DNA from: Naegleria gruberi
Taxonomy: Eukaryota
Direction: 5' to 3' (one strand)
DNA length: 64,000 bases
NCBI GenBank assembly: GCA_000004985.1
Contig: GG738874.1
Shown here: positions 16,271 to 55,487 of the stretch, piece after piece
How the letters are laid out: each line of letters starts with the position of its first letter
How positions within the stretch are numbered: position 1 is the stretch's first letter
The notes under the pieces: model-generated
Told to the model about the DNA's origin: nothing
What the model saw: only the letters and a program-made list of their open reading frames with translations
The model's database searches: none
Program-made: the position numbers and the translations under genes

Positions 16271-16471
16271 GTTTCCAGAAACCATTCTAATTTTGCTCTT
16301 TTGCAAACAACTAACATCTGACCTTCAGCATTTTAAAACGATCTCTTCCTATACTACAATACCCTTATTGTGTTCAATGCTCTCGTTAATGGCCCACTGT
16401 AAATGCCACACCCCAAAGCAATGTTCAAAAAAAGAACACACACAACGTTTCTCTCTATAGTGTATGCAAAA

Positions 16472-36125: not shown

Positions 36126-39100
36126 TTAGTTGGAGAAAAGTATTGGCATGCTTCTATTGTTTGAGTAGAGGAGTGGATTGTTTTTCAAGTGTCTGTGATG
36201 TTTGTCATTGAGCAAATAGGTCTTGACAATTCCTTTTCCTTTCACATCAACTTCTCTCTCTTCAAAATCATATCCCAAATCGAAAACTCTTTCATAAGTT
36301 GATCTGGAGATTTGAATTCGTCCATTCTTTGAAGTGGATTCCATTCGAGAAGCAATATTGATGGTATCACCCCATAAATCGTAGGCAAACTTTTTCATTC
36401 CAATCACTCCAGCAACAACTGATCCTGTATTAATTCCAACTCGAATATTGATTTGTTGAGGTGGTGGAGAGGATGATTTCACCTTTAATTCATTATCTGT
36501 TTCCTTAACAACCTCCTCTTGTTCATTATTATCAACAGATTTGAGTCGATTTGAATTGAAATCATTTATCACTCCAAATGTTTCAATTGCAAATTTTAAA
36601 ACTCTTTCAGGATGATCACTTGTTGCAGCTCCAGGTAATCCACCCACTGCAAAATAGGCATCTCCAATTGTTTTGATCTTTTCCAAATCATATTTTTCAG
36701 TCAACATGTCAAATCCATTCACAATTGAGTTCAACATCATGACTAAATCAGTGGCTTGCATATTACTACTTATGGCTGTAAATCCAACCATATCTGAAAA
36801 GAAACAAGTGATATCATCCAATTTTTCAGCAATGAATGTATGTCCACTTTTCAATCTTGAAGCAACACTTGTTGGTAAAATGTTCTTCAAGAGATTATCC
36901 GATTTTTGTTTCTCTTCACTCAATAAGGCATTTTGTTTCTTTTCAGAAGTTAAATCTTTCATTGTGACAATCAGAATATTTCTCATTGAACCTCTTTCAC
37001 CTTGAATTTTGACAGTGAAGAGTGTTATTTTGCAAGGGAATTTGGTTTGATTTCTTCTGATACAATCCAATTCAACAATTTCACATTTTCCATTTCCTTC
37101 TTCACTCTCCCTCTTCACTTGTTTCAATTGAACATCTTCATCATCTTGATCTTCATCCTTCTTATCAGAATCTTTTCCACTCTTTTTGAAAATATACTTG
37201 ATACACTTGTTGAGTTCATCCTGTTGAGTGGATTCAACTAATTGTGAAATTGAAGTTCCCAAAACATCAATTGGTTTCATTCCAAACATTTTCAATGCAG
37301 AATAATTCAAAAATTCAATTTCATGATTCTCATTACAAATGATACTTCCTTCAACACTTGAATTGAAAACATTCTTCAAATCAGAAATGGATGAAGTTGA
37401 AGATGATGATGACTTGTCCTTCTTTTTCATTCTTGTACTCAATGAATTGGTATTATTATAGAGGATAAAGTTTCTCAATGTTTCATTCCTCTCTAAAACT
37501 TCAACTGGAATATATTGTGACATTAATCGAAGTGAATGTAATTGACCACAATAGTTCATATAGATAGTGTAAAGCAGACTAAATATAACCAAACATGCCA
37601 AAAATTCTAAACAAGCAAAAACAATGGTAACACCAAACGAAGGATTTGATGATGAGCTCACAAATACCTTCATAAATGTAACGAACTTGTTGGTAAGAGC
37701 TACACTCATTCTCAACGCTTGGTTATGTGATAGAGCAACATCTGTTGGTGCAAGAAGAATACCTTTTGGAGTTGCTGCCTTTTGAAGAGTGTTTTGCTTT
37801 CTAGATTCGGTCAATAATTGAGGAATCAATGTCAAATAATCATTTAAAAGTGTTTCCAAACCAACACAATACATCATATATGATTCCATTGTTAATGTAA
37901 TATTATTCTTTTGAAGGTAGTCAGAGCAATTAGATGATACACCTTGAGTAACAAGAGAGTCAACATCAGAATATCTTCCCAATATCTGGTCATCTCCAGT
38001 GTTTGGATCACCATAAATTAGTCTTGACCACATACTACTAAGAGTTGGAAGTCTTGTTGTCACTCTGTCAAAGAGTACATTGAAATTTGTAACAGTATTG
38101 AATAATCTTGGATCACCATATGTAACATTTCTTTTGAAATTCACTGCCAATGGAGAAATTTTGTTAGAAATTTCACTTGCAACAAAGTAGGTCATTACTT
38201 CTCCACTGTTAAATCCAATTCTTTGAATAATTGTGGCAGCTTGAATACTCAATCTTACATTCTTCATAACCTTAGAACTGCTGAAAGCGTTGGCATTACT
38301 TTCATAATAGAACATGGCAATACTTGCACATGTAAATAAGGTAATCAGAGAAATCAAAATAATTGTTGAAATGTTTGATTTCATTTTGGCAAGTGAGAAA
38401 GTATTGTCAGCATTATTGGCTGTATCAGTTGTTTTGTTGTTGAGAGAGTGAAATATTTTTCCAATCACATCTTTGCTCAAATGTTTTTCATATATTTTCA
38501 CAATTTTTGTCATATGACTCATTTCAAATATCATATAACTCAAATAAGCAATACTGATCAAAAAGAATGCAACTAGAACTGCACCTGTATAATACACCAA
38601 ATTTTGAGTTGACAATTCAATTGAATCAATAGATCTATCAAGATAACGGGCACAAAAAGTATCAAAAGCCAGTGAAGCAGTTTCTCTATTCGCAAACAGG
38701 AACATGAAATTGTAATTCTTCAATGGATTGAAGTACTTGTCGCTAGCAACTAAATCCAACAACGCTGATTGAGTAAATGCATCATTGTTGTTATTGGAAA
38801 TATTTTGTAGTAAATCCCAAGGAAATTCATTGATTACATTCTGAGTATATTTGATCATATTGTTTGTAAATTCAAGAATTGAAACATTCTTTTGAGATGA
38901 ACTTCCCAAATCGTATATCGTGACATCTTTCGAATTTTCATTTGGATAATTGATGGTAAAATTATTAATAGAATAATCTGAATATACAGTCTCATCAAAT
39001 GAATTACTCTGACCTAATTTGATCAAAGTCTTATAAACCTCTAGCTCTTCTTTAAGTCTTTTCAAAGAGTTGGCAAAGTAATTAGGTTTTGTAGAAATAA

Positions 39101-41386
39101 TATTTCCCTGATAACTAATAGGCCATGGATACTCAAATAACATGAAGGTATTTACAAAATTTTGAGTGGCTCTAACATTTCTTAGAGCAGAATAAGGAGA
39201 AATACTTGGTTGACAAACTTGTTGAAGGAAAGGCACTCCTGAAATTACTGCATCAGAGTAGTATGAACTCAGTGCTATGGAAGAAACAACAAGGCACAAG
39301 CAAACAAATATGTAGAGTAAACTAATTATAACTGTTGTAGAATTTGACCTTTGTGATGAAATTGCATTCTTGAAAATTTGCTCTTTCCTCATCTTGGGAT
39401 TTTCAAATGCACTTTCCATATCATCTTCATTTGGTTGTTCTTCTACTGGGAATAAGTATGGTTCAAAGTTGGCCTTGGTTTCGTGGAGAGGCATTACACG
39501 GTTAGTTCCTCTCTTATTACTAGTAGCATTACTAAACACAGAAGCTCTTCTCTTCTTTTTCATTTCCTCTTCTTCAATGGAGGAAGCTTCATTGTAATAG
39601 TATTGTGCTAATTCTGAATTGAATTCAAAATTTTCCAAAAAATTTCCATATAATCTGAGAAGTGTCTTGTTATTCTTATTGTTGAAAATTAAATTTTGCA
39701 ACGTATTTCTGCATTGAGTGGTCAAAGCATAAATGGAACGATTAATCTTTTCAACAGATGAATAATTAATTCTCTCAGAGGCCATTTCTTTCCAAAAGTT
39801 TCTGTGAAGAACCAACAAGTTATTTTGATTCTTTTCTAGAATATCTAATTGAGAGGTTAATTCAAATGAATTGCTTGTTGATTTGGATTTTAAATTGAAT
39901 GATTCAATTTGTTTCATTTTCTCTCTGATTTTAAATTGTTGGAAAATGTTTGGATGTTGTGATGAGGCTCTTTTCAATAAACTCATTGAAAAGACACAAT
40001 TATTTGAATCCAACCATTGTGTTTGAATCAAGAGTGCTGAATAGATTAATATATCAACATTATTGAATGATTTTTGATGAGCTGCTCCTCTTATGAAGGA
40101 CATGGCCAATTCACAATCTTTCAATATTTGATTATTTTCAGTAGTGCTATTATTGTTAGTTGGATGATTTGTTTAGTGTAGAATTGGATAGACATGATTT
40201 GATGAATAATTTCAATAATGATAACTTGTTGAAATCTTCAAACATGTAATATAAATTCATTGCATTCTTTTCAATCAAAGTAAGTGGAGAAATGGTTCCA
40301 TAATTTTCATGACCTTCAATTCCATTCAATATCATATTTCTTGCTCTCTTCAATTGTAAACGTTGATAAAATTCCATTGTCAATGTGCCAATAGTAAAGA
40401 AAATGAAAATAAGAGCAAGTGTCATTAATGAAAATGCAATACCCATCATTTCAAAATTGGCCCTCTCAGAATCTGAAGATGAAGATGTTATGGATGATGA
40501 ATTGACCAATGAAGAAACGAGTGAACCAATACTCGCACCAACTCTTGCTGACATTACACCAAAATACAATGAATTTTCAAATCTTCTCAAACATGGCATG
40601 CTATAGAACACCAAAACACAACAAATCAGTGAAACTAGTAAATGAAAAATTGCTGAAATGAAAATATAATTGGTTGGTAATAATTGAGACAATACCAATT
40701 GTAAAATACTCAAAGAACCAATCAAACTGAAAATGAATGGATTTTCAATCAACATTGGAATTTGAGATTCTGGATTTGAATTGCAAGTTATGAATTCTGA
40801 TAATGGAAAGACAAAAGTGACCAAAACTAAAATTGAAATAATTGAGAGAATTAACATGATCAAATTGGTGGTATCATCAATACATGCTTGATTAGGATAT
40901 CTCATCAATGAAGCAATCATATCAGTAGATTCATCAGCATCATTCATCATCATTGTTGAACTACAATTGAGAAAACCAAGCAACACATAAACAAACAACA
41001 ATGAGAATGGTTTTACAATCAAAGCACAATAAAAAGTGAAGTATTTCAATTTCTTATAATACTTGTTCTGTTTGTTGGCTAATCGAATTGAAATTACATA
41101 AAAAACAGCCATTATTAATATAATTGCAATAAAAACAGAACCAATTCCAACAACACCCAAATAAGGAATCATTCTTGCAATCAAAGTCGTTGGAAAATTA
41201 AACGCATCAATTAAAATATAACTTCCAACTTTTCCCCAATTAAAATCTGAAAGAGTTGTCATGAAAATTAAACACCACATCCAATAAACATTCACAAATA
41301 AAAAGATTGAATAATTTTTCCATCCCTTCTTTGCCTCACAATCTTGTAAAGTGATAATACTATTGGTGAGCAATATCTTTGCCTGA
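36126..41386 (-). pseudogene. PAS-domain nucleotidyl cyclase copy 2 (tandem paralog), disrupted as assembled. Body 36126..40124 plus N-terminal portion 40156..41386, separated by a frameshift
   Basis: The 3' half (36126-~38850) is nearly identical to copy 1 while the middle is divergent. Relative to copy 1, 5 nt (attat) are missing at ~40129 in an Asn-rich tract, creating ...LNKSSN* and then a frame change. The 5' coding continues into the N gap at 41387. Confidence 0.5.
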
Positions 41387-41436
41387 NNNNNNNNNNNNNN
41401 NNNNNNNNNNNNNNNNNNNNNNNNNNNNNNNNNNNN
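41387..41436. other. Assembly gap (50 N)
   Basis: Run of n characters. Confidence 0.95.
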
Positions 41437-42507
41437 GTGGCAAATGTTGAGAGTGTACCATTAATATCAATCTTTTTGATAGACCAAGTTGGATTGTTTT
41501 CAACAAAGTAAATATCACCAGTCATTAACGAAACTGTGACTGTGTTTGGATTGGTCAACTTGACAGTATTAGCTGGAAGGCCATCAGTGTTTTCATTAGA
41601 TGATGAACCTGATGCTGCAACACCAGCAATGGTTGATACAACAGTAGGAATGTTATCGAAAACTTCTTGTTCAGGATCAACAATAACACCAGTCCAATTA
41701 TAAGTTAATTTTCTGATTAAATTATTTGCTCTGTCAATAATGATCAAATCTTGAGGTCTTTCATCTTCTACCAAATTTACAAGAGGTGTAGGAATTGTTC
41801 TAGGATAGAATGCAATAGCGTGTGGATGACCGATTGGTGTATCAAGTCCATTATAGCCATCACCAAGATTACCTCCAGCGATGGTTTCCAATTTGTATGT
41901 AGGAGCCAAGTTGTTATCTGAAGATGTTGCATTGATGGTAGTAGTACTAAACAACAACATCATCAAGAGAAGGCTACTAATAAATAAAGATAATAAATAT
42001 TCGTGATGAGAAAAAGATTTTACTCTCCCTGCAGAGTCGAAAAACCTCTTCATTTTTGTGCCTTTTTTTCTTCTTGTCGATTCACTCTACTTGTGCATAA
42101 GAGAAGAATGTTTGATGGATGGGAAGTAATTTTGGAAGGGCAAGGGCAGAAAGTATGTTGTTTGATGCTAAGAAGTGATCTCCGCATTTTGATTTTGTTG
42201 GAGTAAATTTAATTGGCTGATTATTTTTTGTTAGTATTCTTTTTGTCTTCCATTTACGAGGAAGATCTTCATGAAAGATTATTTATCTGATATTAAAGAT
42301 AGCATTGTGATGAACAGATGAAAGCAACACATTTTTATTTTTTTTAAATTATGAATTGTTTATTCTTGTAACGGTAACTTTTACTGCCCGCCACGTTTAA
42401 AAAATGAAAAGAAAGCAAGAAACAAAAAACACCAAGAAATTATCTTCATCATCCAATGAAGGACCAACAAAAAAGTTGAAGCAATCCAACCTTCTCTCCC
42501 TATTCAA
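41437..42507. repeat. 1.07-kb block duplicating 48065-49147 (5' end of the NHL/EGF gene, intergenic region, first 104 nt of the AP-endonuclease gene), inserted between two 50-N gaps inside cyclase copy 2
   Basis: Fragment ORF 41292-42053(-) matches the first 250 aa of the 43142-48688 protein. It differs slightly: an extra Ser, V vs I, and DNA variants in the upstream region. 42404-42507 matches 49038-49141. The cyclase sequence at 41381-41386 (gcctga) continues seamlessly at 42558 when aligned with copy 1 (34545-34555). Confidence 0.7.
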
Positions 42508-42557
42508 NNNNNNNNNNNNNNNNNNNNNNNNNNNNNNNNNNNNNNNNNNNNNNNNNN
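42508..42557. other. Assembly gap (50 N); single N at 42581
   Basis: Run of n characters. Confidence 0.95.
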
Positions 42558-42757
42558 GCCTGATAAGTGATTGAATTAGTNTCGGTTGTGGTTGTATGAG
42601 TGTTGGCACTGTGCAAACTTTCAGAACCAACATGAGATGGTGTTGGTTGAAGCATTGAGGAAGAGAAAGCTACGTTGGTATTTTGTTCGAGCAGGTTATT
42701 GGAAGAGGAGGATGAACCATTACTTGCATTAGGTACTGCAAGTAAGTCTTCGTTCAT
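42558..42757 (-). pseudogene. 5' coding end of cyclase copy 2 (MNEDLLAVPNASNG...LQPTPSHVGSESLHSANTHTTTT.TNSITYQ), separated from the rest of the gene by the inserted block
   Basis: True ATG at 42757. Downstream sequence is identical to the copy-1 N-terminal region from QPTPSHVGSE onward. It ends at the gap. Confidence 0.5.
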
Positions 42758-43141: not shown

Positions 43142-46100
43142 TTAAGGTTCTTCAGTGAGTGTTGCGTAATTTCCATTTCCATCATTTTGATTTTGTGGAG
43201 CGGTTTGTCCTTGTTTCTTCTTGTAAATGTAATATCCAACACCAATGACAATTGCAATAATTATCATCAAAATAAATCCTACAAGAACAACGATATATGA
43301 TTTGTCACCCTTTTCTGTAATAATTGTTCCAGCACTACTTGATGTTGGCTTATTGCTTGATGTGCTTGGTTTGTTTGGGGATGGAGTTGGTTTGTTTGGA
43401 GATGGAGTTGGTTGAGGAGTCTTACCACTGCTAGATGTTGGTGGAGTTATTGGTTGAGCAATAAGGGCAAAAGATGAAGGCCAATGAGTAGTTGAGCATA
43501 CAACTGAATAAGTGCTTGCTGTTGCTCCTTGTTGTGAACTCAAAATGGTGGTTGTAACTCTGTCAGTCTTCCAAGAATCAGTGGCTTTATCGTAATATGC
43601 ACAAGCAATTCTGGACAAGGCGACACTATGTCTTGCTAATGCAGATGTTGGAACGACTATATTGTGCATGTTTAAAAGGATTGGATCAGGAAGGTTATTT
43701 AATTCTACTCTTTGGTTGTTTCCTTGTTGAGTAATGATGAATGTAACAGCAGGGCTCAATACTTTAGAGTTAACACTTCTAATATCAGAAACTGATGAGG
43801 CCATATTGAGTGGAATCTCTTCATCTCTGAGAATAGTTTCCAAATAATCAGAAATTGATGCAGGAAGAGTAATGAAAATATCCTTGAATTTGGTAAATGT
43901 AATATTAAAGCTCTCCATATCTTCCATATCTTGTACGTCTATAATGTTTGTTTCTGTCAAATTCTTCAAAGCAGTATTGTTTACAACAGAACAGAAGAGG
44001 GAAGTATCTCCTGGTGGACAAATAATATTTGTAGCACATTGAGGACCATTATATCCATAAGCACATTGACATGAATCAGGAGATTCACAAACACCATTTC
44101 CAGAACATACATTAGGATCAGAATAATGAATACCATAACAATAGTAATTCTCACAATTATTACCAGAGAATCCACTTGTGCAATTACACTTGTTTGGAGA
44201 TGAACAAATACCATTACCTGAACAAACTTGAGGATCATTCTTATCCAAGCCATTACAAGAGAAGCTTTCACAATTTTCTCCTTCATATCCAAGAACACAA
44301 GTACAATTATTTCCAGATGAGCAAACACCATGACCTGAGCACACATTGGTATCGTTTGAAGGAATACCATGGCATTTGAATGCTTCACAAGTGTGTCCAT
44401 AGTATGGTTCAGTACATTCACAGAGGTCAGGTTTTGAACAAACACCCTTTGATGAACATACTTGTGTATCATTGTGCATAATTCCAAAGCAGTCAAAATG
44501 TTCACAAACATTTCCGTAATATCCAGCTTGACATTCACACTTGTCTACAGATTTGCAAATACCATTACCAGAGCATACTTGCTTGTTAGAATTGAGTACA
44601 CCAAAGCATTGATAATTTTGACATTCCTTTCCTGAATAGCCAGCTTGACAAGTGCAATTGTTTCCAGATGAGCAAACACCATGCCCTGAGCAAACAGTTG
44701 AAGTATTAGTTGAGGAAATACCATAACATGTGAATGATTCACAATTAACTCCTTCATAAGCCTCCTTACATTCACAACGACCTGGGGCTGTGCAGTATCC
44801 ATTTGCTGAACACACATTTGGATCGGCGTGTTCTACTCCATTACAGTAATAAAATTCACAACTAGAACCGTTAAAGTTTTGTTCACATACACACTTATCA
44901 ATTGCTTCACAAACACCATGTGAGGAACATACTTTCTCATCGTTGTGGGCCAATCCAAAGCATCCATAATTCTCGCATTCGTTTCCATAGTATCCAGGTT
45001 TGCAGGTACAATTATTTCCAGATGAACAAACACCATGACCTGAGCAAACAGTGGAGTCATTTGATTGTTTTCCGAAACAGGTAAAATATTGGCAAGTTTC
45101 ACCAGAGTGACCATCGCGGCATTCGCACTTGTTTGGCAAACTACAGAGACCAGCTTGAGAACAAACTGATGGATTTGAGTGCTCTACACCAAAACAGTCA
45201 TAATGCTCGCAATTATTTCCATAATATCCATTGTTACAAGTACAATTATTGGCAGAAATACAAACACCTTGAGATGAACAAACGTTTGGATCTTCCTTTG
45301 GAATTCCATTGCAACCAAATAATTCACATTGCTCGCCATAATAACCTGCGAAACATGAACAATTATTGTAAGACTCACAAACACCATTGCCCGAACAGAC
45401 AGTTTCATTTGAAGGGAGCAAACCAAAGCAAATTCTCGGTAATTTTTCACATTCAGCAGCATCATTAAGTCTGTAACCCTTTGGACACATTGCTGTCAAC
45501 TTTCTAACTCTAGAATTACCACTGTCAGCAATATAAACAGTACTTCCGTCTGGTGAGATATCAGCAAACAATGGTCTGTTCAAAAGTGCGAGCCTTGAAT
45601 CTAAAACAACTTCTCCATTGAATCCATTAATACCAGTTTTACCAGCAATAGTAGAGATGGTAGCGTTTTCTTCCTTAAGATTAAATCTTATAATTGTGCT
45701 ATCTCCATTACAAACAACAATAAAATCACCCTTTGGAGAAACTGAAACAGATCTTGGATAGTAAATAGTATCATCAGATTCAGAACCTTCCAAAACGGTG
45801 GAAATAATTCCGTCATTTGAAACTTTTCTAATTCTATGACTGGCAAAGTCAGAAATGAATACTTCTCCTTCTGGGGATAAGGCAACTGAAGTAGGATTAG
45901 CCAATGAAGCAAGTGTAGCCTTAATATTATCAGCATTATAACCATAATTGTAGTTACCAGCAATAGTTGAAATAACACCCTCTGCGGATACTTTTCTAAT
46001 TCTGTTAGCAACATTATCAGCAATGTAAATTTCACTTGATGCAGAAACAACAAATGAAGATACACTTGACAAAGCAGCTTGTGTAGCCAATAATCCATCA

Positions 46101-48688
46101 CCAATACCACCAGCAATAGTTTCAATTACATTGTTGGAGAGTTTTCTAACTCTATTATTGCCACTATCAGCAATAAAGATATTATCAGAACTATCCATAG
46201 ACAATGAAGAAGGATAATTGAGATAAGTTGTTGTGGCCAAACCATCACCATTAAATTCATAGTTTGAGTCAGATCCAGCAATTAATTGAAGAGAACCATT
46301 ATCATACTTGCTTATCATATTACCATGGGCAATATAGATTTCATCACTGCTGGAAATAACAATACTAGCAGGACTTGAAACCTCAACAAGTGTGGTAATA
46401 TTTCCATCGAGGCCAATTTTTCTGATTCTATCATTTCTGGTATCGGCAATAAACATTTCACCAATTGAATTGATAGCAATAGAATTTGGGGCATTGAGAG
46501 AGGCACAACAAGCCTTTGAACCATCTCCAGCAAAAGTTGGTGAACCATTTCCAGATACAGAAGTAATAATTCCATTAGAAATCTTTCTAATTCTATTATT
46601 GTTAGTATCTGCAAAATAAATATCACCATTAGAGGATATGTGCAAACCATTTGGATTGTTCAACAAGGCATCGGTAGCGCTAATGTTGTTTCCATTATAA
46701 CCTGTAACGGTTTGATTACCAGCAATAATAGTGACAACACCATCTGGAGACAATTTACTGATTGTGCTAAGTCCTGTAAAGTAAATATCATCTCCAAATT
46801 CATTGACACTGGTTGGGAACTCTACCACATTAGTAATAGTAGAAATGATACCGGTTGTTTGATTGATCATTCTAATTCTATTATTTCCACTGTCACAAAT
46901 GTAAATGTTGCCAGAAGTCTTTGAGGCAAAAACACCAGATGGATAGAAGAGAATTGATGAGGTAGCAACTTGTCCATCTCCTGCAAAATTATTGAGGATA
47001 CCACCAGCAACACGCTTAATAATACCATTTGAAAGAATCTTGTAAATGACATTTTCTACATTAAAGTAGGTCTCTCCTGTACCGGCAATGTAGAAGGAAG
47101 CAGATGGATTGGAAATTAATGTTGCATTGGCCAATTTACCATCCAAATCAGTTAATGTGTTTACAGGTTCTGACGAACCAATGACTGTAGAAATAATGCC
47201 TTGTTGATTAATTCTTCTAATTCTATTGTTACTTCCATCGGCAATGGTAATAATATCGGCTCCATCCTTTTGGGCGACATGAACATGATTAGGTGAGAGT
47301 GCAGACTGAATTGCTGGGCCATTATCTCCCAAATATGTTGGTTGTCCATTACCAAAAATTGTTGAAATGATTCCTTCCTCAGTAATCTTTCTAATTCTAT
47401 TGTTCATGCAGTCGGCAATAATAATCTCCTCAGCAGAAATAGCAATGAATGAAGGATTGTTCAAAGTTGCAGCAGTAGCTAAGCCACCATCTCCAATTGG
47501 TCCGATATTAGATCCAGTACCGGCTACAATGGAAATTGTATTGGTTGCTGGATTTAACATTTTGAGAATGTGTTGGGATTGTTCCAAAAAGTAGACTTCA
47601 CCCTCCTCACCAACAGCAATACTGGTTGGAGCAATGGTTGCATTGAGAGCATCAATAGGAATTGGTTGGATTGGAGAACCTGGAATTGGTTGAGCACCTG
47701 AACCTGCAACTGTTGTAATAATTCCATTGACAATCTTTCTAATGTAAAACTTGTCGGCAATGTAAATTTCTGGGATGGTATTAATTGGAGCATCTTCCAT
47801 TCTAAAAAGAGCAAGTCCTGTTGGTTGAGAAAGGAGAGCATCAGTAGCATTGATACCATTGCCAAAGTATCCCTCTTGTCCACATATACCAGCAATGGTA
47901 GTGATGGTCTTGTTGGAAATTGATAACTTTCTAATTCTAAAGTTTTGAGTATCTACAATATAGATAAACTCCTCTACACCTTCCATTGAATAGACAATTT
48001 GACTTGGAGCAGACAATTGTGCATCACTCAAAGGAGAAGGAACATTATCAGAACAAATAGAGTCCAAATTGTTAGTGGCAAATGTTGAGAGTGTACCATT
48101 AATATCAATCTTTTTGATAGACCAAGTTGGATTGTTTTCAACAAAGTAAATATCACCAGTCATTAACGAAACTGTGACTGTGTTTGGATTGGTCAACTTG
48201 ACAGTATTAGCTGGAAGGCCATCAGTGTTTTCATTAGATGAACCTGATGCTGCAACACCAGCAATGGTTGATACAATAGTAGGAATGTTATCGAAAACTT
48301 CTTGTTCAGGATCAACAATAACACCAGTCCAATTATAAGTTAATTTTCTGATTAAATTATTTGCTCTGTCAATAATGATCAAATCTTGAGGTCTTTCATC
48401 TTCTACCAAATTTACAAGAGGTGTAGGAATTGTTCTAGGATAGAATGCAATAGCGTGTGGATGACCGATTGGTGTATCAAGTCCATTATAGCCATCACCA
48501 AGATTACCTCCAGCGATGGTTTCCAATTTGTATGTAGGAGCCAAGTTGTTATCTGAAGATGTTGCATTGATGGTAGTAGTACTAAACAACAACATCATCA
48601 AGAGAAGGCTACTAATAAATAAAGATAATAAATATTCGTGATGAGAAAAAGATTTTACTCTCCCTGCAGAGTCGAAAAACCTCTTCAT
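43142..48688 (-). CDS. Giant type I membrane protein, 1848 aa: signal peptide, ~12+ NHL-type beta-propeller repeats, ~17 tandem EGF-like modules, Pro/Thr-rich stalk, single TM, short cytoplasmic tail
   Basis: True ATG at 48688 with hydrophobic signal peptide (LLSLFISSLLLMMLLFSTTTINA). Recurrent ADxxNNRIRKI/ADSGNNRVRKL units are NHL-like. Repeated CSGHGVCSSGNNCTCxxGYxGxxCExxxC units are EGF-like with 6 Cys per ~32 aa. C-terminal KTPQPTPSPNKPTPSPNKPSTSS, then YIVVLVGFILMIIIAIVIGVGYYIY (TM), then KKKQGQ.... Confidence 0.7.
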   Translation of the reverse strand: MKRFFDSAGRVKSFSHHEYLLSLFISSLLLMMLLFSTTTINATSSDNNLAPTYKLETIAGGNLGDGYNGLDTPIGHPHAIAFYPRTIPTPLVNLVEDERPQDLIIIDRANNLIRKLTYNWTGVIVDPEQEVFDNIPTIVSTIAGVAASGSSNENTDGLPANTVKLTNPNTVTVSLMTGDIYFVENNPTWSIKKIDINGTLSTFATNNLDSICSDNVPSPLSDAQLSAPSQIVYSMEGVEEFIYIVDTQNFRIRKLSISNKTITTIAGICGQEGYFGNGINATDALLSQPTGLALFRMEDAPINTIPEIYIADKFYIRKIVNGIITTVAGSGAQPIPGSPIQPIPIDALNATIAPTSIAVGEEGEVYFLEQSQHILKMLNPATNTISIVAGTGSNIGPIGDGGLATAATLNNPSFIAISAEEIIIADCMNNRIRKITEEGIISTIFGNGQPTYLGDNGPAIQSALSPNHVHVAQKDGADIITIADGSNNRIRRINQQGIISTVIGSSEPVNTLTDLDGKLANATLISNPSASFYIAGTGETYFNVENVIYKILSNGIIKRVAGGILNNFAGDGQVATSSILFYPSGVFASKTSGNIYICDSGNNRIRMINQTTGIISTITNVVEFPTSVNEFGDDIYFTGLSTISKLSPDGVVTIIAGNQTVTGYNGNNISATDALLNNPNGLHISSNGDIYFADTNNNRIRKISNGIITSVSGNGSPTFAGDGSKACCASLNAPNSIAINSIGEMFIADTRNDRIRKIGLDGNITTLVEVSSPASIVISSSDEIYIAHGNMISKYDNGSLQLIAGSDSNYEFNGDGLATTTYLNYPSSLSMDSSDNIFIADSGNNRVRKLSNNVIETIAGGIGDGLLATQAALSSVSSFVVSASSEIYIADNVANRIRKVSAEGVISTIAGNYNYGYNADNIKATLASLANPTSVALSPEGEVFISDFASHRIRKVSNDGIISTVLEGSESDDTIYYPRSVSVSPKGDFIVVCNGDSTIIRFNLKEENATISTIAGKTGINGFNGEVVLDSRLALLNRPLFADISPDGSTVYIADSGNSRVRKLTAMCPKGYRLNDAAECEKLPRICFGLLPSNETVCSGNGVCESYNNCSCFAGYYGEQCELFGCNGIPKEDPNVCSSQGVCISANNCTCNNGYYGNNCEHYDCFGVEHSNPSVCSQAGLCSLPNKCECRDGHSGETCQYFTCFGKQSNDSTVCSGHGVCSSGNNCTCKPGYYGNECENYGCFGLAHNDEKVCSSHGVCEAIDKCVCEQNFNGSSCEFYYCNGVEHADPNVCSANGYCTAPGRCECKEAYEGVNCESFTCYGISSTNTSTVCSGHGVCSSGNNCTCQAGYSGKECQNYQCFGVLNSNKQVCSGNGICKSVDKCECQAGYYGNVCEHFDCFGIMHNDTQVCSSKGVCSKPDLCECTEPYYGHTCEAFKCHGIPSNDTNVCSGHGVCSSGNNCTCVLGYEGENCESFSCNGLDKNDPQVCSGNGICSSPNKCNCTSGFSGNNCENYYCYGIHYSDPNVCSGNGVCESPDSCQCAYGYNGPQCATNIICPPGDTSLFCSVVNNTALKNLTETNIIDVQDMEDMESFNITFTKFKDIFITLPASISDYLETILRDEEIPLNMASSVSDIRSVNSKVLSPAVTFIITQQGNNQRVELNNLPDPILLNMHNIVVPTSALARHSVALSRIACAYYDKATDSWKTDRVTTTILSSQQGATASTYSVVCSTTHWPSSFALIAQPITPPTSSSGKTPQPTPSPNKPTPSPNKPSTSSNKPTSSSAGTIITEKGDKSYIVVLVGFILMIIIAIVIGVGYYIYKKKQGQTAPQNQNDGNGNYATLTEEP
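44000..45480 (-). repeat. Intragenic tandem array of ~96-99-bp units encoding the EGF-like modules
   Basis: Periodic recurrence of tgttcatctgg(a/t)aataattgtac-type segments. The many short ORFs on both strands here are by-products of this periodicity. Confidence 0.6.
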
Positions 48689-49037
48689 TTTTGTGCCTTT
48701 TTTTCTTCTTGTCGATTCACTCTACTTGTGCATAAGAGAAGAATGTTTGATGGATGGGAAGTAATTTTGGAAGGGCAAGGGCAGAAAGTATGTTGTTTGA
48801 TGCTAAGAAGTGATCTCCGCATTTTGATTTTGTTGGAGTAAATTTAATTGGCTGATTATTTTTTGTTAGTATTCTTTTTGTCTTCCATTTACGAGAAGAT
48901 CTTCACGAAAGATTATTTATCTGATATTAAAGATAGCATTGTGATGAACAGATGAAAGCAACACATTTTTATTTTTTTTAAATTATGAATTGTTTATTCT
49001 TGTAACGGTAACTTTTACTGCCCGCCACGTTTAAAAA

Positions 49038-50150
49038 ATGAAAAGAAAGCAAGAAACAAAAAACACCAAGAAATTATCTTCATCATCCAATGAAGGACCA
49101 ACAAAAAAGTTGAAGCAATCCAACCTTCTCTCCCTATTCAAGGCACCTTCATCACCACCAGCCTCATCGCAATCCTCTACTGATACTGACTCATTGACAA
49201 TAGTAGAGGAGAGTAAAACCTTCTTGGGCACGAATAATAGCTATGAATTGAACAAGCAATTTAAATTCATCAGCTGGAATGTGAATGGAATATCTGCCGT
49301 CTTTAGGAAGGAACCCAATTATTTGAAAATGTTGGTAGAGAAGGAAGAACCTACTTGTCTTTGTTTGCAAGAGACTAAGCTTTCTGAAGATGTAAAATTA
49401 TCGGAAATGGCACAATATAAATTCAAGAATTATATTGGACACTTTAACACTTCTAGGGCAAGAAAAGGATACTCTGGTACTGCTTGTTTTGTTCTAAAGC
49501 ATGGTCCAAAAGTATTGAATGTCAAGTTTGGTATTGGTAAGGATAAGCATGATTTGGAGGGAAGAACTATTACTGTTGAATATGAAGACTTTTATTTGGT
49601 CAAGTAAGTTAATATTTACACATGTGTAATCTCATGCCTTATTATTGAATGAATTGATTCAAAATGATAATCATTTTGTTGACATAATAATAGTACTTAT
49701 TGTCCCAATTCTGGACAAAATCTCGATCGATTGGAATATAGAACAAAGGAATGGGATGTGGATCTACTCAAATACTTTGAAAAATTGGAAAAGAAAAAGC
49801 CAATCATTTGGGGTGGTGATCTTAATGTTGCCATTTCAGAGATGGATATTCATGATCCTCTTACATTATCCAAAAGTCCTGGTTTTACATTGGAAGAACG
49901 GCAATCTTCTCCTCTCGTAACAAAGGCCTCACCTCCTTTTATTGATTCTTTCAGATATAAAAATCCATATAAGAAACAATACACATACTATGGTTACATT
50001 AATGACATGAGATTACAAAAGAAAGGATGGAGAATTGATTATTTTGTTTGTAGTAATTCTCTAAAAGACAAGATTGTAAATTCTTACATTCTTGAGGAAT
50101 ACTTTGGCAGTGACCATCTACCAATTGGTTTAATCATTAATAAGGAGTAG
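49038..50150 (+). CDS. APE1/exonuclease III-family AP endonuclease, two exons: join(49038..49603,49694..50150)
   Basis: True ATG 49038. Exon 1 ...TVEYEDFYLV ends in phase 2 before GTAAGT at 49604. Acceptor is aataAG|... at 49692-49693. The spliced product ...[26 protein letters not shown]...IIWGGDLNVA...GSDHLPI aligns to the human APE1 blocks [34 protein letters not shown] and SDHCPI. The ORF-track second half starts at a TTG inside exon 2. Confidence 0.7.
49604..49693 (+). other. Intron, 90 nt, GTAAGT...AATAG
   Basis: Only this splice restores the conserved YVPN(A/S)G motif of the ExoIII fold and keeps the reading frame. Confidence 0.65.
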
Positions 50151-53480: not shown

Positions 53481-55487
53481 TTAGATATAATCCAAATCTG
53501 AATATTGTGAACTAGTCAAAATGTTGACATCCGTGAAATGATTATTCTCCAATTTGTAAAGTAATCTCCTCCCCATCAAATTTTCAAACTTTTTATCCAA
53601 ATTCCAATTCACAAATGATTCTCTCACATTAAATAACATTGAATTCATTACCTGATTGACATCAAATTCATCCAAAGTATTAATGGCATGGAAAGTGATT
53701 GAAGATTCGTATTCTGCTTCACTTTCTCCATAGTAATGTGAATGATAGCTGATTGAGTATCGATTTTGGATTTGTTTGAATCGTTCGAGGATGTAATTGA
53801 AAACTTGTTTTGGGTTTTTACGATTTCCATTGAAATCTGAAAAGTATTGAGAAAGTGCATTGGATGCTTCACCTTTGGAAACCTTTCGAATGAAGGAATC
53901 GACCTTTGTGAAGAGAACAATCTTTCGAATAGATGATTCGCCAAGTTCCTTCTTGGAAAACACTTGTTCGAAATAGGTTAAACTATCTAGCAATCTATTA
54001 CCTGGTTTGGTTTCTGATTTGGAAGGTGAAATTAAATCTTCAAAACTTAACATGTCAATATCCGAAAGTGAAACTGTGAATATAATACATTTCAAATTTT
54101 GTTTTTCCAAATATGGAAGATAGAGAGCTCGTTTTTCTTTCCATCCAAAAGTTTCCAATAACAATAGCTTTCTAGTCACCAATTCTCTATTTTCCAAAGT
54201 TGGTTTTGTAATATCCTTCACTGGCATACTTTCCAAAGATAGAATTTTAGCCCTCACAATATCTTGTTTGGTCAACTCGGTAATTTTCTTCAATTTTTCA
54301 ACTCTGCCATCATTTAAAAAGTATTCAATATTCTCTCCCAATAGTGGAATTGGAGTTTTCCTCGAATTTCTCTCTCTATACGATTTTTGGACGAAAGGAT
54401 GTTTCCACAATTGATCCATCACTTTGAAAAATTCCTTCTGCTTCCATAATCGTCTTAGAATTTGTTGAGATGATGAAACTGAGTTGTTATCTGATGAATT
54501 AACTGTCATTGAAGAACTTCCATTATTCGAATTTTGGCTTGTTTGAGGATTTAATGAGAAAATATTCGAAGGAGATTGGTTTCCATTCGGTGATGTCTTT
54601 CCATTCGTAGAATTCACATTCGTATTCATTGAACTATTCGATAAATAATTAATTCTTGGAGAAACTGACTCTGGATGAATCATATTTTGAAATTGTTGAA
54701 TTAAATCTGAAAATTGTTGAGTAAATTCTGGTGAAGAATTTTGAATTTCCTCAAAATTGACTTCATGTTGTGAATGTACAAGGATTTTTAAACAGTAAAT
54801 GCAATAGAGAAGTATTGAATCTCTATAGAATTTCAATTCTTCAGTTTTGTAATTGTAATCTCTCAAAATTTCCATCAAAGTTGCTAAAATAGGAAACTGT
54901 CAGAATTCAAAATTATATTGACACTTACTTTTACCGCTATCTACACCTCCAAGAATGAGAACTAATTTACAATCTTGTAATCTTTTCAAATGTTCTTGAT
55001 GTGAAATGCCACTAATCAATTTTGAATAAATATTGAACTGGGTAGCTCTTGGAGTTTTCATTGCAGAACTTGAACTTCCAATATTTAATAATGAAGTTGA
55101 TAAAGATTTACTCTTCCTGTCAGAATTGATGACTGACAGTTGTTCGACATTTGTTAGATTGAGTGTTGGCACTTTCGACACTTCGGAAGATTTTGTATTT
55201 TTCAAAGCATCAAAAACAGGATCTTCTGTTTTGACATCCGAAGTATTATTTGATGTTATCATGGATGTCAAAATAAATCTGCCAACTGACTGGCTTCTTT
55301 GATGTTTGGCAGGTTTTAATCCTTCCCTTCCGTTCTGTTGTTGTAAATTTGCAAGATTTGAATTCGAATTATTTAAAGTAAACGAAGACGAATCTACTTC
55401 TATTCGAATCAGACTTTCAATTCCATTTGATAGAGAATCTCCAGCATTTTGTTGGTCAAGATCTGGTGATGAAAGTTTTATTCCCAT
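53481..55487 (-). CDS. Divergent G-alpha-subunit-like protein 2 (probable pseudo-GTPase), two exons: join(complement 54929..55487, complement 53481..54883)
   Basis: ATG at 55487 with MGIKLSS (MGxxxS myristoylation context). Exon 1 ends ...KLVLILGGVDSGK in phase 1 before GTAAGT on the minus strand (+ coordinates 54928 down). Acceptor is ...cctattttAG. Splicing yields LILGGVDSGKTTLMEILRDY, paralleling SSGKTTICEMIRY of paralog 1 and the GxGESGKST P-loop of G-alpha. ETFGWKEKRALYLPYLEKQNLKCIIFTVSLSDID aligns to [32 protein letters not shown], so the DVGGQ motif is lost. TKVD aligns to NKKD. Confidence 0.55.
54884..54928 (-). other. Intron, 45 nt, GTAAGT...TTTTAG, phase 1
   Basis: Removes an in-frame stop and restores P-loop continuity (GK|TT). 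The short length is a caveat. Confidence 0.45.

What the first reader, a model, noticed from the sequence alone, without database searches (positions are those of the whole stretch)
43142..48688. 1848-aa NHL-propeller plus 17x EGF-array type I membrane protein
The architecture is receptor- or adhesion-like: signal peptide, many NHL repeats, a long perfectly periodic EGF-like array, a P/T-rich stalk, a TM helix and a short tail. It is reminiscent of teneurin/tenascin-type molecules but in a protist context and with a different domain order. EGF module DNA is highly periodic, implying expansion by unequal crossing-over.
Basis: partly seen in the sequence, partly recalled or inferred. Interest (0 to 1): 0.5.

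Follow-up and report, generated by a model that had tools for sequence, protein, structure and literature searches.

The report
Naegleria NHL–EGF–GAIN single-pass surface receptor
This is a real, very large cell-surface protein of the amoeba Naegleria gruberi, with about 18 NHL propeller blades, 12 (not 17) EGF modules and a previously unnoticed GAIN/GPS-type domain next to the membrane, so it resembles the outer half of an animal adhesion GPCR on a single membrane anchor and is not a teneurin.

Summary
The 1848-aa ORF at 43142..48688 (-) is real, and the window is Naegleria gruberi NEG-M. Pfam supports NHL (TEN_NHL 6e-57, NHL 3e-43) and EGF (EGF_Teneurin 6e-49, EGF_2 6e-41).

- There are 12 EGF units, not 17. 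Eleven are 39 aa and one is 40 aa.
- The EGF DNA is not periodic. TRF finds nothing there, and unit-to-unit DNA identity averages 57% (maximum 72.5%). Only an old 3-unit super-repeat is detectable (p≈0.004).
- In this protein the H-L-T cleavage triad reads H-W-P-S in both alleles, so self-cleavage is doubtful.

It is not a teneurin: it is type I and has no FN-plug, YD shell or Tox-GHH. It belongs to a Naegleria family in which NHL–EGF–GAIN ectodomains are joined to a short tail, a kinase or a 7TM-RGS. The most likely function is an adhesion/recognition receptor with a conserved YxxL tail motif. A 1,071-bp near-identical copy of the 5' end at 41437–42507 is a mis-scaffolded haplotig.

The parts
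43142..48688 (-). Complete single-exon CDS, 1848 codons plus stop (stop codon at 43142-43144).
   Evidence: ORF listing. Homologs align along the whole length.
48563..48688 (-). N-terminal signal-peptide-like segment, aa 1-42. It has a basic n-region and a hydrophobic core at aa 18-40 (LLSLFISSLLLMMLLF), followed by TTTINA/TS.
   Evidence: Kyte-Doolittle scan. Cleavage was not tested; no signal-peptide predictor was available.
45479..48523 (-). NHL-repeat region, aa 56-1070, with about 18 blades. Eleven blades carry the strong '[IV]ADxxNxR[IV]RK[ILV]' strand. This probably forms three six-bladed beta-propellers (inferred).
   Evidence: Pfam TEN_NHL 6.3e-57, NHL 2.8e-43, SGL 3.5e-8. Motif and self-HMM segmentation. 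PDB sequence hits to bacterial teneurin-like protein 9ifo (3e-58), Pizza6 designer propellers in 3 stretches, and PknD sensor 1rwi.
45431..45487 (-). Conserved two-cysteine hairpin linking the last NHL blade to EGF1, aa 1068-1086 (LTAMCPKGYRLNDAAECEKLPRI).
   Evidence: Cys positions. The same 'LTPYC..GY......C' element is present in relatives P0122, P0123, P0128, P0131 and P0133.
44024..45430 (-). Array of 12 EGF-like modules, aa 1087-1555. Consensus CxGxxxxDxxVCSGxGVCxSxNxCxCxxGYxGxxCExxx. The period is 39 aa, and unit 7 is 40 aa. There are 12 N-glycosylation sequons in the array.
   Evidence: Pfam EGF_Teneurin 5.6e-49, EGF_2 5.9e-41, EGF_TEN 1.4e-40. Unit tables. Sequon count.
43454..44023 (-). 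GAIN-B-type juxtamembrane domain, aa 1556-1745. It starts with a small Cys loop (C1557-C1566) and a few short helices, followed by a beta-sandwich.
43454..43603 (-). GPS-like motif, aa 1696-1745: C1696-AYYDKATDS-W1706-KTDRV…VV-C1731-STT-H1735-W-P-S1738-SFALIAQ. This corresponds to the five C-terminal strands of the model. The canonical H-L-T triad is replaced by H-W-P-S.
   Evidence: C1696, W1706 and C1731 are invariant in A2. 10 of 13 family members hit Pfam GPS but the query does not. The same residues occur in the second allele, P0121. Model strands at 139-145, 150-152, 156-165, 169-178 and 184-189.
43298..43453 (-). P/T/S-rich mucin-like stalk, aa 1746-1797, including a 21-nt tandem repeat (43366-43413) encoding about 2.3 copies of PTPSPNK.
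   Evidence: Composition. TRF.
43220..43297 (-). Single transmembrane helix, aa 1798-1823 (YIVVLVGFILMIIIAIVIGVGYYIY).
   Evidence: Kyte-Doolittle maximum 3.46 over 19 aa. This is the only hydrophobic segment other than the N-terminal one.
43145..43219 (-). 25-aa cytoplasmic tail KKKQGQTAPQNQNDGNGNYATLTEEP, with a C-terminal Y-x-x-L-x-E-E motif.
   Evidence: Read from the sequence. The motif is kept in the allele P0121 (YATLAEEP) and in the closest relative P0131 (EYSNLQEEI).

Best explanation
The ORF encodes a large, heavily glycosylated type I cell-surface receptor of Naegleria gruberi. It belongs to a family, so far seen mainly in Naegleria, with an NHL–EGF–GAIN ectodomain.

Shown here:
- About 18 NHL blades lie at the membrane-distal end.
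- A conserved Cys hairpin follows, then a rod of 12 non-calcium-type EGF modules.
- A GAIN-B-type beta-sandwich with a GPS-like motif comes next, followed by a P/T/S stalk, one TM helix and a 25-aa tail.

Inferred:
- The blades close into three six-bladed propellers that act as the ligand-binding heads.
- The disulfide-rich EGF rod holds the heads roughly 30 nm from the membrane.
- The GAIN-type domain is a structural, force-bearing juxtamembrane module. In this paralog it probably does not self-cleave, because the H-L-T triad reads H-W-P-S. Sister paralogs with an intact HLT probably do cleave.
- The tail has no enzymatic domain, so its output is adhesion and/or adaptor-mediated internalisation through the conserved C-terminal YxxL-x-EE motif.
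- Overall it would act as an adhesion, recognition or uptake receptor for substrate, prey or other cells. Paralogs couple related ectodomains to a cytoplasmic protein kinase or to a 7TM-RGS module.
For: - ORF and topology.
- NHL and EGF profile hits far above the curated cut-offs.
- Blade segmentation.
- 12 EGF units.
- GAIN homology from four independent lines:
  1. phmmer against 1.84 billion representatives finds 11 relatives of aa 1556-1767 beyond the allele P0121 (E 1.8e-9 to 9e-4). All have EGF → this domain → TM. All but P0132, whose N-terminus shows no NHL by eye, have NHL upstream (P0131 is a fragment retaining only the last blade). All but P0126 and P0131 end the domain in C.T.HLT[ST]F.
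  2. 10 of 13 family members match Pfam GPS.
  3. The family profile hits aGPCR GAIN domains in the PDB over about 105 positions.
- Family identity: relatives are N. gruberi, N. lovaniensis and N. fowleri proteins. UniProt auto-names two of them 'GAIN-B domain-containing' and 'GPS domain-containing'.
- Alternative outputs: P0011 has NHL + EGF + a sub-threshold GPS + TM + kinase. P0132 has EGF + GAIN + TM + kinase. P0094 has NHL + EGF + Pfam GPS + 7TM + RGS. Published work notes that N. fowleri 7TM-RGS proteins carry EGF and GPS ectodomains (PMC9283941).
- The degenerate triad is present in both alleles. The canonical motif is H-X-S/T (abstract of PMC13062082).
- Tail motif conservation.
Against: - No experimental data exist on expression, localisation, ligand or cleavage.
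- The query alone gets no Pfam GPS hit. Its pairwise BLASTP to GPS-bearing paralogs is weak (E 0.05-0.16), so the GAIN assignment rests on family-level and structural evidence.
- The AF2 model used only 13 sequences, most of which carry a GPS.
- The domain is about 190 aa, against about 320 aa for a full GAIN. The helical subdomain A is at best vestigial.
- A 52-aa stalk separates the domain from the TM. Arac et al. found that GAIN domains immediately precede the first TM.
- S1738 and H1735 are still near the GPS turn, so atypical cleavage cannot be excluded.
- The three-propeller arrangement and the rod length are inferences.
- YxxL as a sorting signal in Naegleria is an extrapolation from other eukaryotes.
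Confidence: 0.6

Rival explanations
1. It is a self-cleaving, force-sensing receptor that works like an adhesion GPCR or polycystin-1. The GAIN domain would autoproteolyse at the GPS, and pulling on the NHL/EGF ectodomain would shed the N-terminal fragment and expose or release the C-terminal stub as the signal.
For: GAIN-type fold and GPS strands. Paralogs keep a textbook HLT-SFAV site. A His (H1735) and two Ser (S1738, S1739) remain in the GPS turn. The family includes signalling outputs, kinase and 7TM-RGS.
Against: No register gives H-x-S/T: the sequence reads H-W-P, and W-P-S lacks the His. The change is in both alleles. The closest relative, P0131, has lost the His altogether (F-W-L-T). 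This suggests that the sub-clade has relaxed the cleavage chemistry. The protein has no 7TM or channel for a tethered agonist to act on, and the 25-aa tail has no signalling domain.
Confidence: 0.2
2. It is a protist teneurin or tenascin homolog, that is, a member of those families rather than a look-alike.
For: The best-scoring Pfam models are the teneurin-derived ones: TEN_NHL, EGF_Teneurin and EGF_TEN. The best PDB sequence match of the NHL region is a teneurin-like protein (9ifo, 3e-58).
Against: 9ifo is a bacterial protein from Bacillus inaquosorum, and teneurins are defined by the FN-plug + NHL + YD-shell superfold (PMC13018210). This protein has no RHS/YD, FN-plug, TTR, Ten_N, ABD or Tox-GHH hit even at E≤1, and no unassigned sequence that could hold an ~800-aa shell. 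Topology is type I rather than type II, and the NHL region precedes the EGF array. No FN3 or fibrinogen domain is present, which rules out tenascin.
Confidence: 0.03
3. It is a surface-tethered enzyme: the NHL/SGL-type propellers would act as a lactonase, lyase or PAL-like catalytic domain rather than a binding domain.
For: Pfam SGL (SMP-30/gluconolactonase) scores 33.8 bits, above its 26.3 cut-off. There are weak Vgb-lyase and ScyF/ScyE hits. Many bacterial hits are auto-named 'sugar lactone lactonase YvrE'.
Against: These are generic six-blade-propeller cross-hits, far weaker than the NHL/TEN_NHL hits. All NCBIfam hits are far below their cut-offs. The architecture of 18 blades, an EGF rod, GAIN and a TM, together with paralogs carrying kinase or 7TM-RGS outputs, is that of a receptor family.
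Confidence: 0.05
4. It is not a functional gene but a pseudogene or an assembly artefact created by collapsed repeats.
For: The assembly nearby is imperfect, with a mis-placed haplotig and N gaps at 41387-42557. No full-length public gene model was found.
Against: The reading frame is intact over 5.5 kb with no N inside it. All domains are complete and in the same order as in relatives. The repeats are too diverged (57% DNA identity) to collapse or mis-assemble. The second allele has the same N- and C-terminal protein sequence, with a few substitutions.
Confidence: 0.02

Closest known systems
Naegleria paralogs with NHL–EGF–GAIN–TM architecture: N. gruberi XP_002678376 ('NHL repeat domain-containing protein'), XP_002678052, XP_002680294, XP_002672731; N. 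lovaniensis XP_044547599 ('GAIN-B domain-containing protein'); environmental P0133
   Same: Same domain order, including both flanking Cys hairpins, the single TM and a short tail. The juxtamembrane domain is homologous (E 1.8e-9 to 1.5e-4).
   Different: They have 1-4 EGF units against 12 here and a canonical HLT GPS triad against H-W-P-S here. They have about 25 aa between the GPS and the TM instead of a 52-aa P/T/S stalk, and most lack the YxxL-x-EE tail. Identity is only about 25-33%.
Adhesion GPCR ectodomains (CELSR1, BAI3, latrophilin-3, GPR56, GPR126, CD97) and their GAIN domains
   Different: It has one TM helix instead of 7TM. The GAIN is reduced to about 190 aa (subdomain B, with little of helical subdomain A). 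It has one conserved Cys pair instead of two and a degenerate cleavage triad. A stalk lies between GAIN and TM. NHL propellers are not an aGPCR module.
Naegleria fowleri 7TM-RGS proteins with EGF repeats and GPS motifs (Bosch et al. 2022, PMC9283941), and P0094 (NHL+EGF+GPS+7TM+RGS)
   Same: Same genus-level toolkit. The ectodomains combine EGF repeats with a GPS, and P0094 also has NHL repeats.
   Different: Those proteins signal through a 7TM and an RGS box. This one has a single TM and a 25-aa tail.
Receptor-kinase paralogs: N. gruberi P0011 (2807 aa) and N. fowleri XP_044566999 (P0132/P0137)
   Same: P0011 is the best same-architecture hit (37% identity over 77% of the query). It has NHL, 13 EGF units, a GPS-like motif (Pfam GPS E=0.006) and a TM.
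   Different: There is about 900 aa of extra sequence between the EGF array and the GPS, and a cytoplasmic protein kinase domain.
Teneurins (animal) and bacterial teneurin-like proteins
   Same: NHL propeller and EGF modules of the same Pfam sub-types. Both are large adhesion-type surface proteins.
   Different: See the membership test. This protein has no FN-plug or YD shell, no Tox-GHH, the opposite membrane topology and the reversed domain order, and it has 18 blades rather than 6.
LDL-receptor family (YWTD propeller + EGF + single TM + tyrosine-based endocytic tail); functional analogy only, from general knowledge
   Same: Six-bladed propellers combined with EGF modules, an O-glycosylated stalk next to the membrane, a single TM, and a short tail with a tyrosine-based motif.
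   Different: The propeller family differs: NHL here, with no Ldl_recept_b hit. There are no LDL-A repeats, and the motif is YxxL rather than NPxY. No homology is implied.

Membership tests
NHL-repeat beta-propeller proteins | Repeated ~40-55-aa NHL blades recognised by the Pfam NHL / TEN_NHL profiles | tested here: met
   PF01436 scores 144.3 bits (cut-off 20) over 7 stretches. PF25021 scores 193.6 bits (cut-off 27.1) over 12 stretches. The self-HMM finds 16 blades and 2 more degenerate ones are readable.
NHL-repeat beta-propeller proteins | Blades close into six-bladed propellers (here 3 x 6) | not tested
   This is inferred from 18 blades and from three separate matches to the 256-aa Pizza6 propellers.
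EGF-like domain | Six-cysteine module recognised by EGF profiles | tested here: met
   There are 12 units of C-x10-C-x5-C-x5-C-x-C-x8-C. EGF_Teneurin scores 164.3 bits, EGF_2 138.9 bits and EGF_TEN 139.8 bits, all above their cut-offs.
Calcium-binding EGF (cbEGF) | D/N-x-D/N-E/Q-C N-terminal consensus; Pfam EGF_CA | tested here: not met
   No EGF_CA hit even at E≤1. The inter-unit linker is E-x-[FY]-x-C-x-G.
Teneurin | Superfold of FN-plug + NHL + YD (RHS) shell (PMC13018210) | tested here: not met
   Only the NHL part is present. There are no RHS/YD or FN hits at E≤1. All 1848 residues are accounted for by other parts.
Teneurin | Type II topology with an N-terminal intracellular domain, and EGF repeats N-terminal to the NHL | tested here: not met
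   The protein has an N-terminal signal-like segment and a C-terminal TM + KKK. The NHL region (56-1070) precedes the EGF array (1087-1555). There is no Ten_N hit.
Teneurin | C-terminal ABD / Tox-GHH domain | tested here: not met
   No hit. The C-terminus is a TM plus a 25-aa tail.
Tenascin | EGF array followed by FN3 repeats and a fibrinogen globe; secreted oligomer | tested here: not met
   No fn3 or Fibrinogen_C hit. The protein is membrane-anchored.
GAIN domain | Subdomain B beta-sandwich whose last five strands are the GPS motif | tested here: met
GAIN domain | Helical subdomain A (~6 helices; whole domain ~320 aa) | tested here: not met
GAIN domain | GPS sequence motif (Pfam PF01825): conserved Cys pairs and Trp | tested here: inconclusive
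   The query alone gets no Pfam GPS hit, while 10 of 13 aligned relatives do (best 6.7e-6). C1696, W1706 and C1731 are invariant in the family, which makes one Cys pair rather than two.
GAIN domain | Cleavage triad H-x-S/T (HL|T) and autoproteolysis | tested here: not met
   The sequence is T-H1735-W-P-S1738-S-F in both alleles. The canonical motif is taken from PMC13062082. Actual cleavage cannot be tested with these tools.
GAIN domain | Immediately precedes the first TM helix (Arac et al. 2012) | tested here: not met
   A 52-aa P/T/S stalk separates the last GPS strand (ends at 1745) from the TM (starts at 1798). The paralogs have about 25 aa there.
Adhesion GPCR | GAIN domain followed by a 7TM domain | tested here: not met
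   There is only one hydrophobic segment after the ectodomain and no 7tm_2 hit.
Polycystin-1 / REJ family | REJ module + GAIN + PLAT + 11 TM (or a REJ-type ectodomain) | tested here: not met
   No REJ, PLAT or PKD_channel hits at E≤1. The protein has a single TM.

The most novel reading that the evidence does not exclude
Naegleria (Discoba) has a modular receptor system in which NHL–EGF–GAIN or EGF–GAIN ectodomains are plugged onto at least three different outputs: a bare single-pass anchor with a YxxL tail, a receptor kinase, and a 7TM-RGS. On this reading, single-pass GAIN receptors would be a third class of GAIN membrane proteins beside adhesion GPCRs and PKD1-like proteins. GAIN-based adhesion or mechanosensing would then have been a free-standing juxtamembrane device before, or independently of, its coupling to 7TM domains. 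This paralog, with its naturally degenerate GPS, would be a built-in cleavage-deficient comparator to sister genes with an intact HLT.
Probability: 0.3. Interest if true: 0.6.

Novelty: new variant of a known kind. Interest (0 to 1): 0.4.

Why it matters
GAIN domains are the hallmark of animal adhesion GPCRs and polycystins, and how they sense force is actively debated. A deep-branching amoeboflagellate carries the same fold beneath NHL propellers and EGF rods, on single-pass, kinase and 7TM-RGS chassis. That widens the known repertoire of GAIN-bearing receptors. It also offers natural cleavable and non-cleavable paralog pairs for testing what the domain does without a 7TM partner.

For Naegleria biology, including the pathogen N. 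fowleri, which has relatives of this family, these are candidate adhesion or prey/host-recognition receptors.

There is also a practical annotation point. In the collections searched, this 5.5-kb gene has no full-length public protein model. The only overlapping public model (349 aa) is a chimera spliced across an assembly gap in an allelic scaffold.

Tried and rejected
- Dictyostelid origin, guessed from 34% GC. Rejected: neighbouring genes are exact matches to N. gruberi NEG-M models on a 401,612-bp scaffold.
- A real tandem duplication of the gene's 5' end at 41292-42053. Rejected: the 1,071-bp piece is 99.5% identical to the main copy, sits between two exact 50-N gaps and interrupts cyclase-2 where only about 17 codons are missing. 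It is a haplotig.
- Single-sequence AF2 of aa 1517-1767 gave pLDDT 39 and was unusable. This cost one of the two structure jobs.
- Word-indexed homolog searches with the C-terminal region and with alignment A2 returned only the allele-derived P0121. Only the exhaustive HMMER search found the relatives.
- The look-up of encoding contigs for P0121 found nothing on record.
- Pfam GPS on the query segment alone gave no hit. BLASTP to P0011 and P0094 gave only E 0.16 and 0.05.
- TRF on the CDS found only the 21-nt stalk repeat and a 9-nt repeat, and nothing in the EGF DNA.
- Literature searches for Naegleria + NHL/EGF/teneurin/'NHL repeat' found nothing on this family.
- HGT of the NHL region from bacteria, suggested by the top hits being bacterial. 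Not pursued, because summed scores over many repeats favour long bacterial NHL proteins and are not phylogenetic evidence.
Full report

The ORF listing returns an ATG-to-stop ORF of 1848 aa on the minus strand at exactly 43142..48688. The window is about 34-37% G+C in this region. About 7% of random codons would therefore be stops, and an open frame of 1848 codons has a chance probability near 1e-59 (my arithmetic). There is no N inside the ORF. The N runs are at 20826, 41387-41436, 42508-42557 and 42581.

A Kyte-Doolittle scan finds only two hydrophobic segments:
- aa 18-40 lies behind a basic N-terminus and looks like a signal peptide.
- aa 1794-1824 is followed by KKK and a 25-aa tail.

This gives type I topology. 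The segment aa 1746-1797 is 23.5% P, 21.6% S and 17.6% T. TRF finds a 21-nt repeat in it (43366-43413).

**2. NHL and EGF assignments**

They do not:

| Pfam model | E-value | Score detail |
|---|---|---|
| TEN_NHL | 6.3e-57 | |
| NHL | 2.8e-43 | 144 bits against a cut-off of 20 |
| EGF_Teneurin | 5.6e-49 | |
| EGF_2 | 5.9e-41 | |
| EGF_TEN | 1.4e-40 | |

A regex for the strong beta-strand finds 11 copies of '[IV]ADxxNxR[IV]RK'. An HMM built from them finds 16 blades. The two gaps it leaves each contain a readable degenerate blade: aa ~500-561 with '…GETYFNVENVIYKILSNG', and aa ~615-656 with '…DDIYFTGLSTISKLSPDG'. This gives about 18 blades. That count, together with three separate matches to the 256-aa six-bladed Pizza6 proteins, suggests three six-bladed propellers. 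This is an inference and was not tested structurally.

**3. The EGF count and the 'periodic DNA' claim**

Cysteine positions show a 39-aa period with six Cys per unit from aa 1087 to 1555. Extraction gives 12 units, eleven of 39 aa and one of 40 aa. An independent regex also gives 12.

At DNA level the claim fails:
- TRF at minimum score 30 reports nothing in the EGF-coding DNA.
- Mean pairwise DNA identity between units is 0.57, with a maximum of 0.725.
- Third-codon-position identity is 0.45 against 0.37 expected from composition.

What remains is an old higher-order structure. Similarity is higher at lags 3 and 6. Units 4, 7 and 10 are 62-72% identical to each other (69-74% in the multi-protein MAFFT alignment). 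Shuffling the unit order 20,000 times gives p≈0.004 for both variable protein columns and DNA. Among relatives the regex finds 1, 1, 4, 4, 11 and 13 units. The array therefore grew by tandem duplication, partly in 3-unit blocks, but long ago. There is no sign of recent unequal exchange or gene conversion.

**4. Organism and the state of the public annotation**

The C-terminal 293 aa hit a single database protein, P0121. It is a 349-aa 'predicted protein [Naegleria gruberi]'. Exact look-ups show that neighbouring window ORFs equal N. gruberi NEG-M models XP_002676155, XP_002676075 and XP_002676079 on a 401,612-bp scaffold. Our ORF is not in the collection. No near-identical protein appeared among the hits to the full-length query.

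P0121 is a chimera. Its aa 1-178 are our N-terminus in a variant form (V138 and an extra Ser). They are joined directly to our last ~170 aa, which carry 3 substitutions. It comes from a 43-kb scaffold. A second, gapped allelic copy therefore exists in the assembly, and the gene model was spliced across the gap.

**5. The duplicate 5' end in the window**

The ORF at 41292..42053 starts with the same ~200 aa. The piece 41437-42507 is 99.5% identical to the main copy: 2 substitutions, a 1-bp indel and a 3-bp indel. It matches our gene's first ~615 nt, its whole upstream region and the first codons of the divergent neighbour gene. It carries the same V/SSS variant as P0121. It lies between two exact 50-N gaps.

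The flanking sequence belongs to one gene, the second of two tandem PAS-adenylate/guanylate cyclases. That gene's aa ~1-60 are at 42584-42757, and its aa 78 onward resume at 41373, 97% identical to cyclase-1. Only about 17 codons are missing where 1,071 bp have been inserted. The piece is therefore a mis-scaffolded haplotig and not a biological duplication.

**6. The unassigned 190 aa: a GAIN-type domain**

Between EGF12 and the stalk, aa 1556-1745 have no Pfam hit. They end in '…CAYYDKATDSWKTDRV…VVCSTTHWPSSFALIAQ', which resembles a GPS motif.

The evidence was built in steps:
- **(a) Pairwise sequence.** BLASTP aligns the motif positions with N. gruberi P0011 ('CIYYDTTLSKWST…CRSSHLSVFSV') and with P0094 ('CQYWSESDNMWKSDGC…CACNHTTSFSAF'), but weakly (E 0.16 and 0.05). 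Pfam GPS scores 39.8 bits for P0094, 17.4 bits for P0011 (E 0.006), and nothing for our segment.
- **(b) Exhaustive search.** phmmer with aa 1556-1767 against 1.84 billion representatives gives P0121 plus 11 relatives (E 1.8e-9 to 9e-4). All have EGF → this domain → TM. All but P0132 have NHL upstream. P0132 has no NHL by eye and carries a cytoplasmic kinase, and P0131 is a fragment that retains only the last blade. The rest have a short tail. In all but P0126 and P0131 the domain ends in 'C.Y.D….W..DG…C.T.HLT[ST]F'.
- **(c) Family alignment.** In the 13-sequence alignment A2, C1696, W1706 and C1731 are invariant. 10 of 13 members hit Pfam GPS (best 6.7e-6).
- **(d) Profile against the PDB.** The A2 profile gives 12 hits at E≤10. 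All but one, a viral VP7 at E 0.19, are adhesion-GPCR chains. The significant ones are ADGRL3 (7e-5), ADGRG3 (2e-3) and ADGRG1 (4e-3); ADGRE5, G6, F1 and B2 follow at E 0.1-1.9. The best hits align over about 105 positions, well beyond the 45-aa GPS and into GAIN subdomain B.

The last five strands of the model (aa 1694-1744) correspond to the five-strand GPS described by Arac et al. (PMC3321182).

Caveats:
- The domain is about 190 aa, not about 320. It has only short helices in place of subdomain A.
- It has one conserved Cys pair rather than two.
- It is separated from the TM by a 52-aa stalk, whereas Arac et al. found GAIN immediately before the first TM.

**7. The cleavage site**

The family consensus H-L-T-S-F is H1735-W-P-S1738-S-F in our protein. 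P0131, the relative sharing its W insertion and tail motif, has F-W-L-T-S-F. The canonical GPS is H-X-S/T (abstract of PMC13062082), and no register satisfies it here. The allele-derived P0121 has the same residues, so this is not a sequencing error. I infer that this paralog probably does not self-cleave, while its sisters with HLT probably do. Neither point is testable with these tools.

**8. Family context and likely mechanism**

The relatives are:
- N. gruberi: XP_002678052, XP_002680294, XP_002678376, XP_002672731.
- N. lovaniensis: XP_044547599, auto-named 'GAIN-B domain-containing'; and XP_044553884.
- N. fowleri: XP_044566999, auto-named 'GPS domain-containing'.
- Unnamed environmental sequences.

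P0133, in the same 90%-identity cluster as P0131 and environmental in origin, is 32% identical across the NHL region. It has the same domain order but 4 EGF units.

Related ectodomains are joined to other outputs:
- P0011: NHL + 13 EGF + GPS-like motif + TM + protein kinase.
- P0132: EGF + GAIN + TM + kinase.
- P0094: NHL + 4 EGF + Pfam GPS + 7TM + RGS.

Bosch et al. reported 28 7TM-RGS proteins in N. fowleri. [quoted passage not shown] I found no paper describing the single-pass NHL–EGF–GAIN form.

I therefore read the protein as an adhesion/recognition receptor:
- Propeller heads sit on a rigid EGF rod. There are 29 N-glycosylation sequons in all, 12 of them in the rod.
- A GAIN-type juxtamembrane module and a mucin-like stalk follow.
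- The tail has a C-terminal Y-A-T-L-T-E-E. The motif is conserved as Y-A-T-L-A-E-E in the allele and Y-S-N-L-Q-E-E in P0131. From general knowledge of YxxΦ signals, it may be an adaptor or endocytic sorting motif.

The ligand is unknown.

**9. Comparison with known families**

Teneurins are defined by the FN-plug + NHL + YD-shell superfold, type II topology and a C-terminal ABD/Tox-GHH (PMC13018210). Only the NHL criterion is met here. The best PDB sequence match of our NHL region is the bacterial Bacillus inaquosorum teneurin-like protein (9ifo, 3e-58), far ahead of animal teneurins (about 1e-13). PknD's sensor propeller also matches. This reflects a bacterial-type NHL repeat and not teneurin membership.

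Tenascin, adhesion GPCR and polycystin/REJ membership each fail on defining features. The EGF and GAIN part has only weak PDB sequence hits: WIF-1, HHIP and DLL4 EGF modules.

**10. Verdict**

The finding is real, and the receptor-like reading holds. The EGF count and the DNA-periodicity argument do not. The main addition is the GAIN-type domain and the Naegleria receptor family it reveals. In terms of novelty it is a new variant of a known kind: a GAIN-bearing adhesion-type receptor on a single-pass chassis, with NHL heads and a degenerate GPS. Interest is moderate (0.4).

Noticed in passing
window 41437-42507 (ORF 41292..42053, minus strand), flanked by N runs 41387-41436 and 42508-42557: A 1,071-bp piece is 99.5% identical to 48080-49140, which covers the 5' end of the NHL-EGF gene, its promoter region and the start of the divergent neighbour gene. 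It is inserted inside the second cyclase gene at a point where only about 17 codons are missing. It is a mis-scaffolded allelic contig.
   Followed up: yes
public protein P0121 (N. gruberi 'predicted protein', 349 aa, from a 43,173-bp scaffold): This is a chimeric gene model. The N-terminal 178 aa of this gene (haplotig variant) are spliced directly to its C-terminal ~170 aa, skipping about 1,500 aa. It is the only public model overlapping this gene that the searches found.
   Followed up: yes
window 29268-34748 (-) and 36126-42757 (-): Two tandem paralogous multi-TM adenylate/guanylate cyclases, each with TmcB-type TPR, PAS and cyclase domains. They are 97% identical in the N-terminal membrane part. 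The second is broken by the gaps and the haplotig, and by an apparent stop or intron near 40124-40156.
   Followed up: partly
window 22811-23974 (-) and 53481-54878 (-): Two G-protein alpha subunit genes lie in the same 64 kb (Pfam G-alpha 1e-43 and 8e-37). This fits the known lineage-specific Gα expansion in Naegleria.
   Followed up: no
window 4707-8426, 9172-13434, 16403-20608, 21078-22805 (all + strand): A cluster of four ORFs encodes extremely K/S/T-rich low-complexity proteins (K 21-26%) with no Pfam hit. They account for the strong positive AT skew at 6-8 kb and 16-22 kb. The first two share a structured N-terminal domain.
   Followed up: partly
window 49038-49607 and 49731-50150 (+): The divergently transcribed neighbour is an endonuclease/exonuclease/phosphatase-family (ExoIII/APE-like) gene. 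It is split by a gap of about 120 bp between the two ORFs, presumably an intron. It shares a ~350-bp intergenic region with the NHL-EGF gene.
   Followed up: partly
window 45431-45487 and ~43994-44023 (aa 1068-1086 and 1557-1566): Two small two-cysteine loops flank the EGF array: 'LTAMCPKGY…C' before EGF1 and 'ICPPGDTSLFC' after EGF12. Similar Cys-containing linkers occur at both positions in several Naegleria relatives, so they look like family hallmarks.
   Followed up: partly
window 43366-43413: A 21-nt tandem repeat (2.3 copies, 96% match) in the stalk encodes PTPSPNK repeats. It is the only clear DNA-level tandem repeat in the gene and a plausible site of allelic length variation.
   Followed up: no
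window 2961-4091 (+): A Dyp-type peroxidase gene (Pfam Dyp_perox_C 1.7e-30) that exactly equals N. gruberi XP_002676075. This is a mostly bacterial/fungal enzyme family.
   Followed up: no
window 43981-44538 (-), 45133-45468 (+), 45688-46125 (-), 46315-46650 (-), 47554-47895 (-): ORFs of 111-185 aa in other frames lie inside the CDS. They are by-products of the long ORF's composition and not genes.
   Followed up: no
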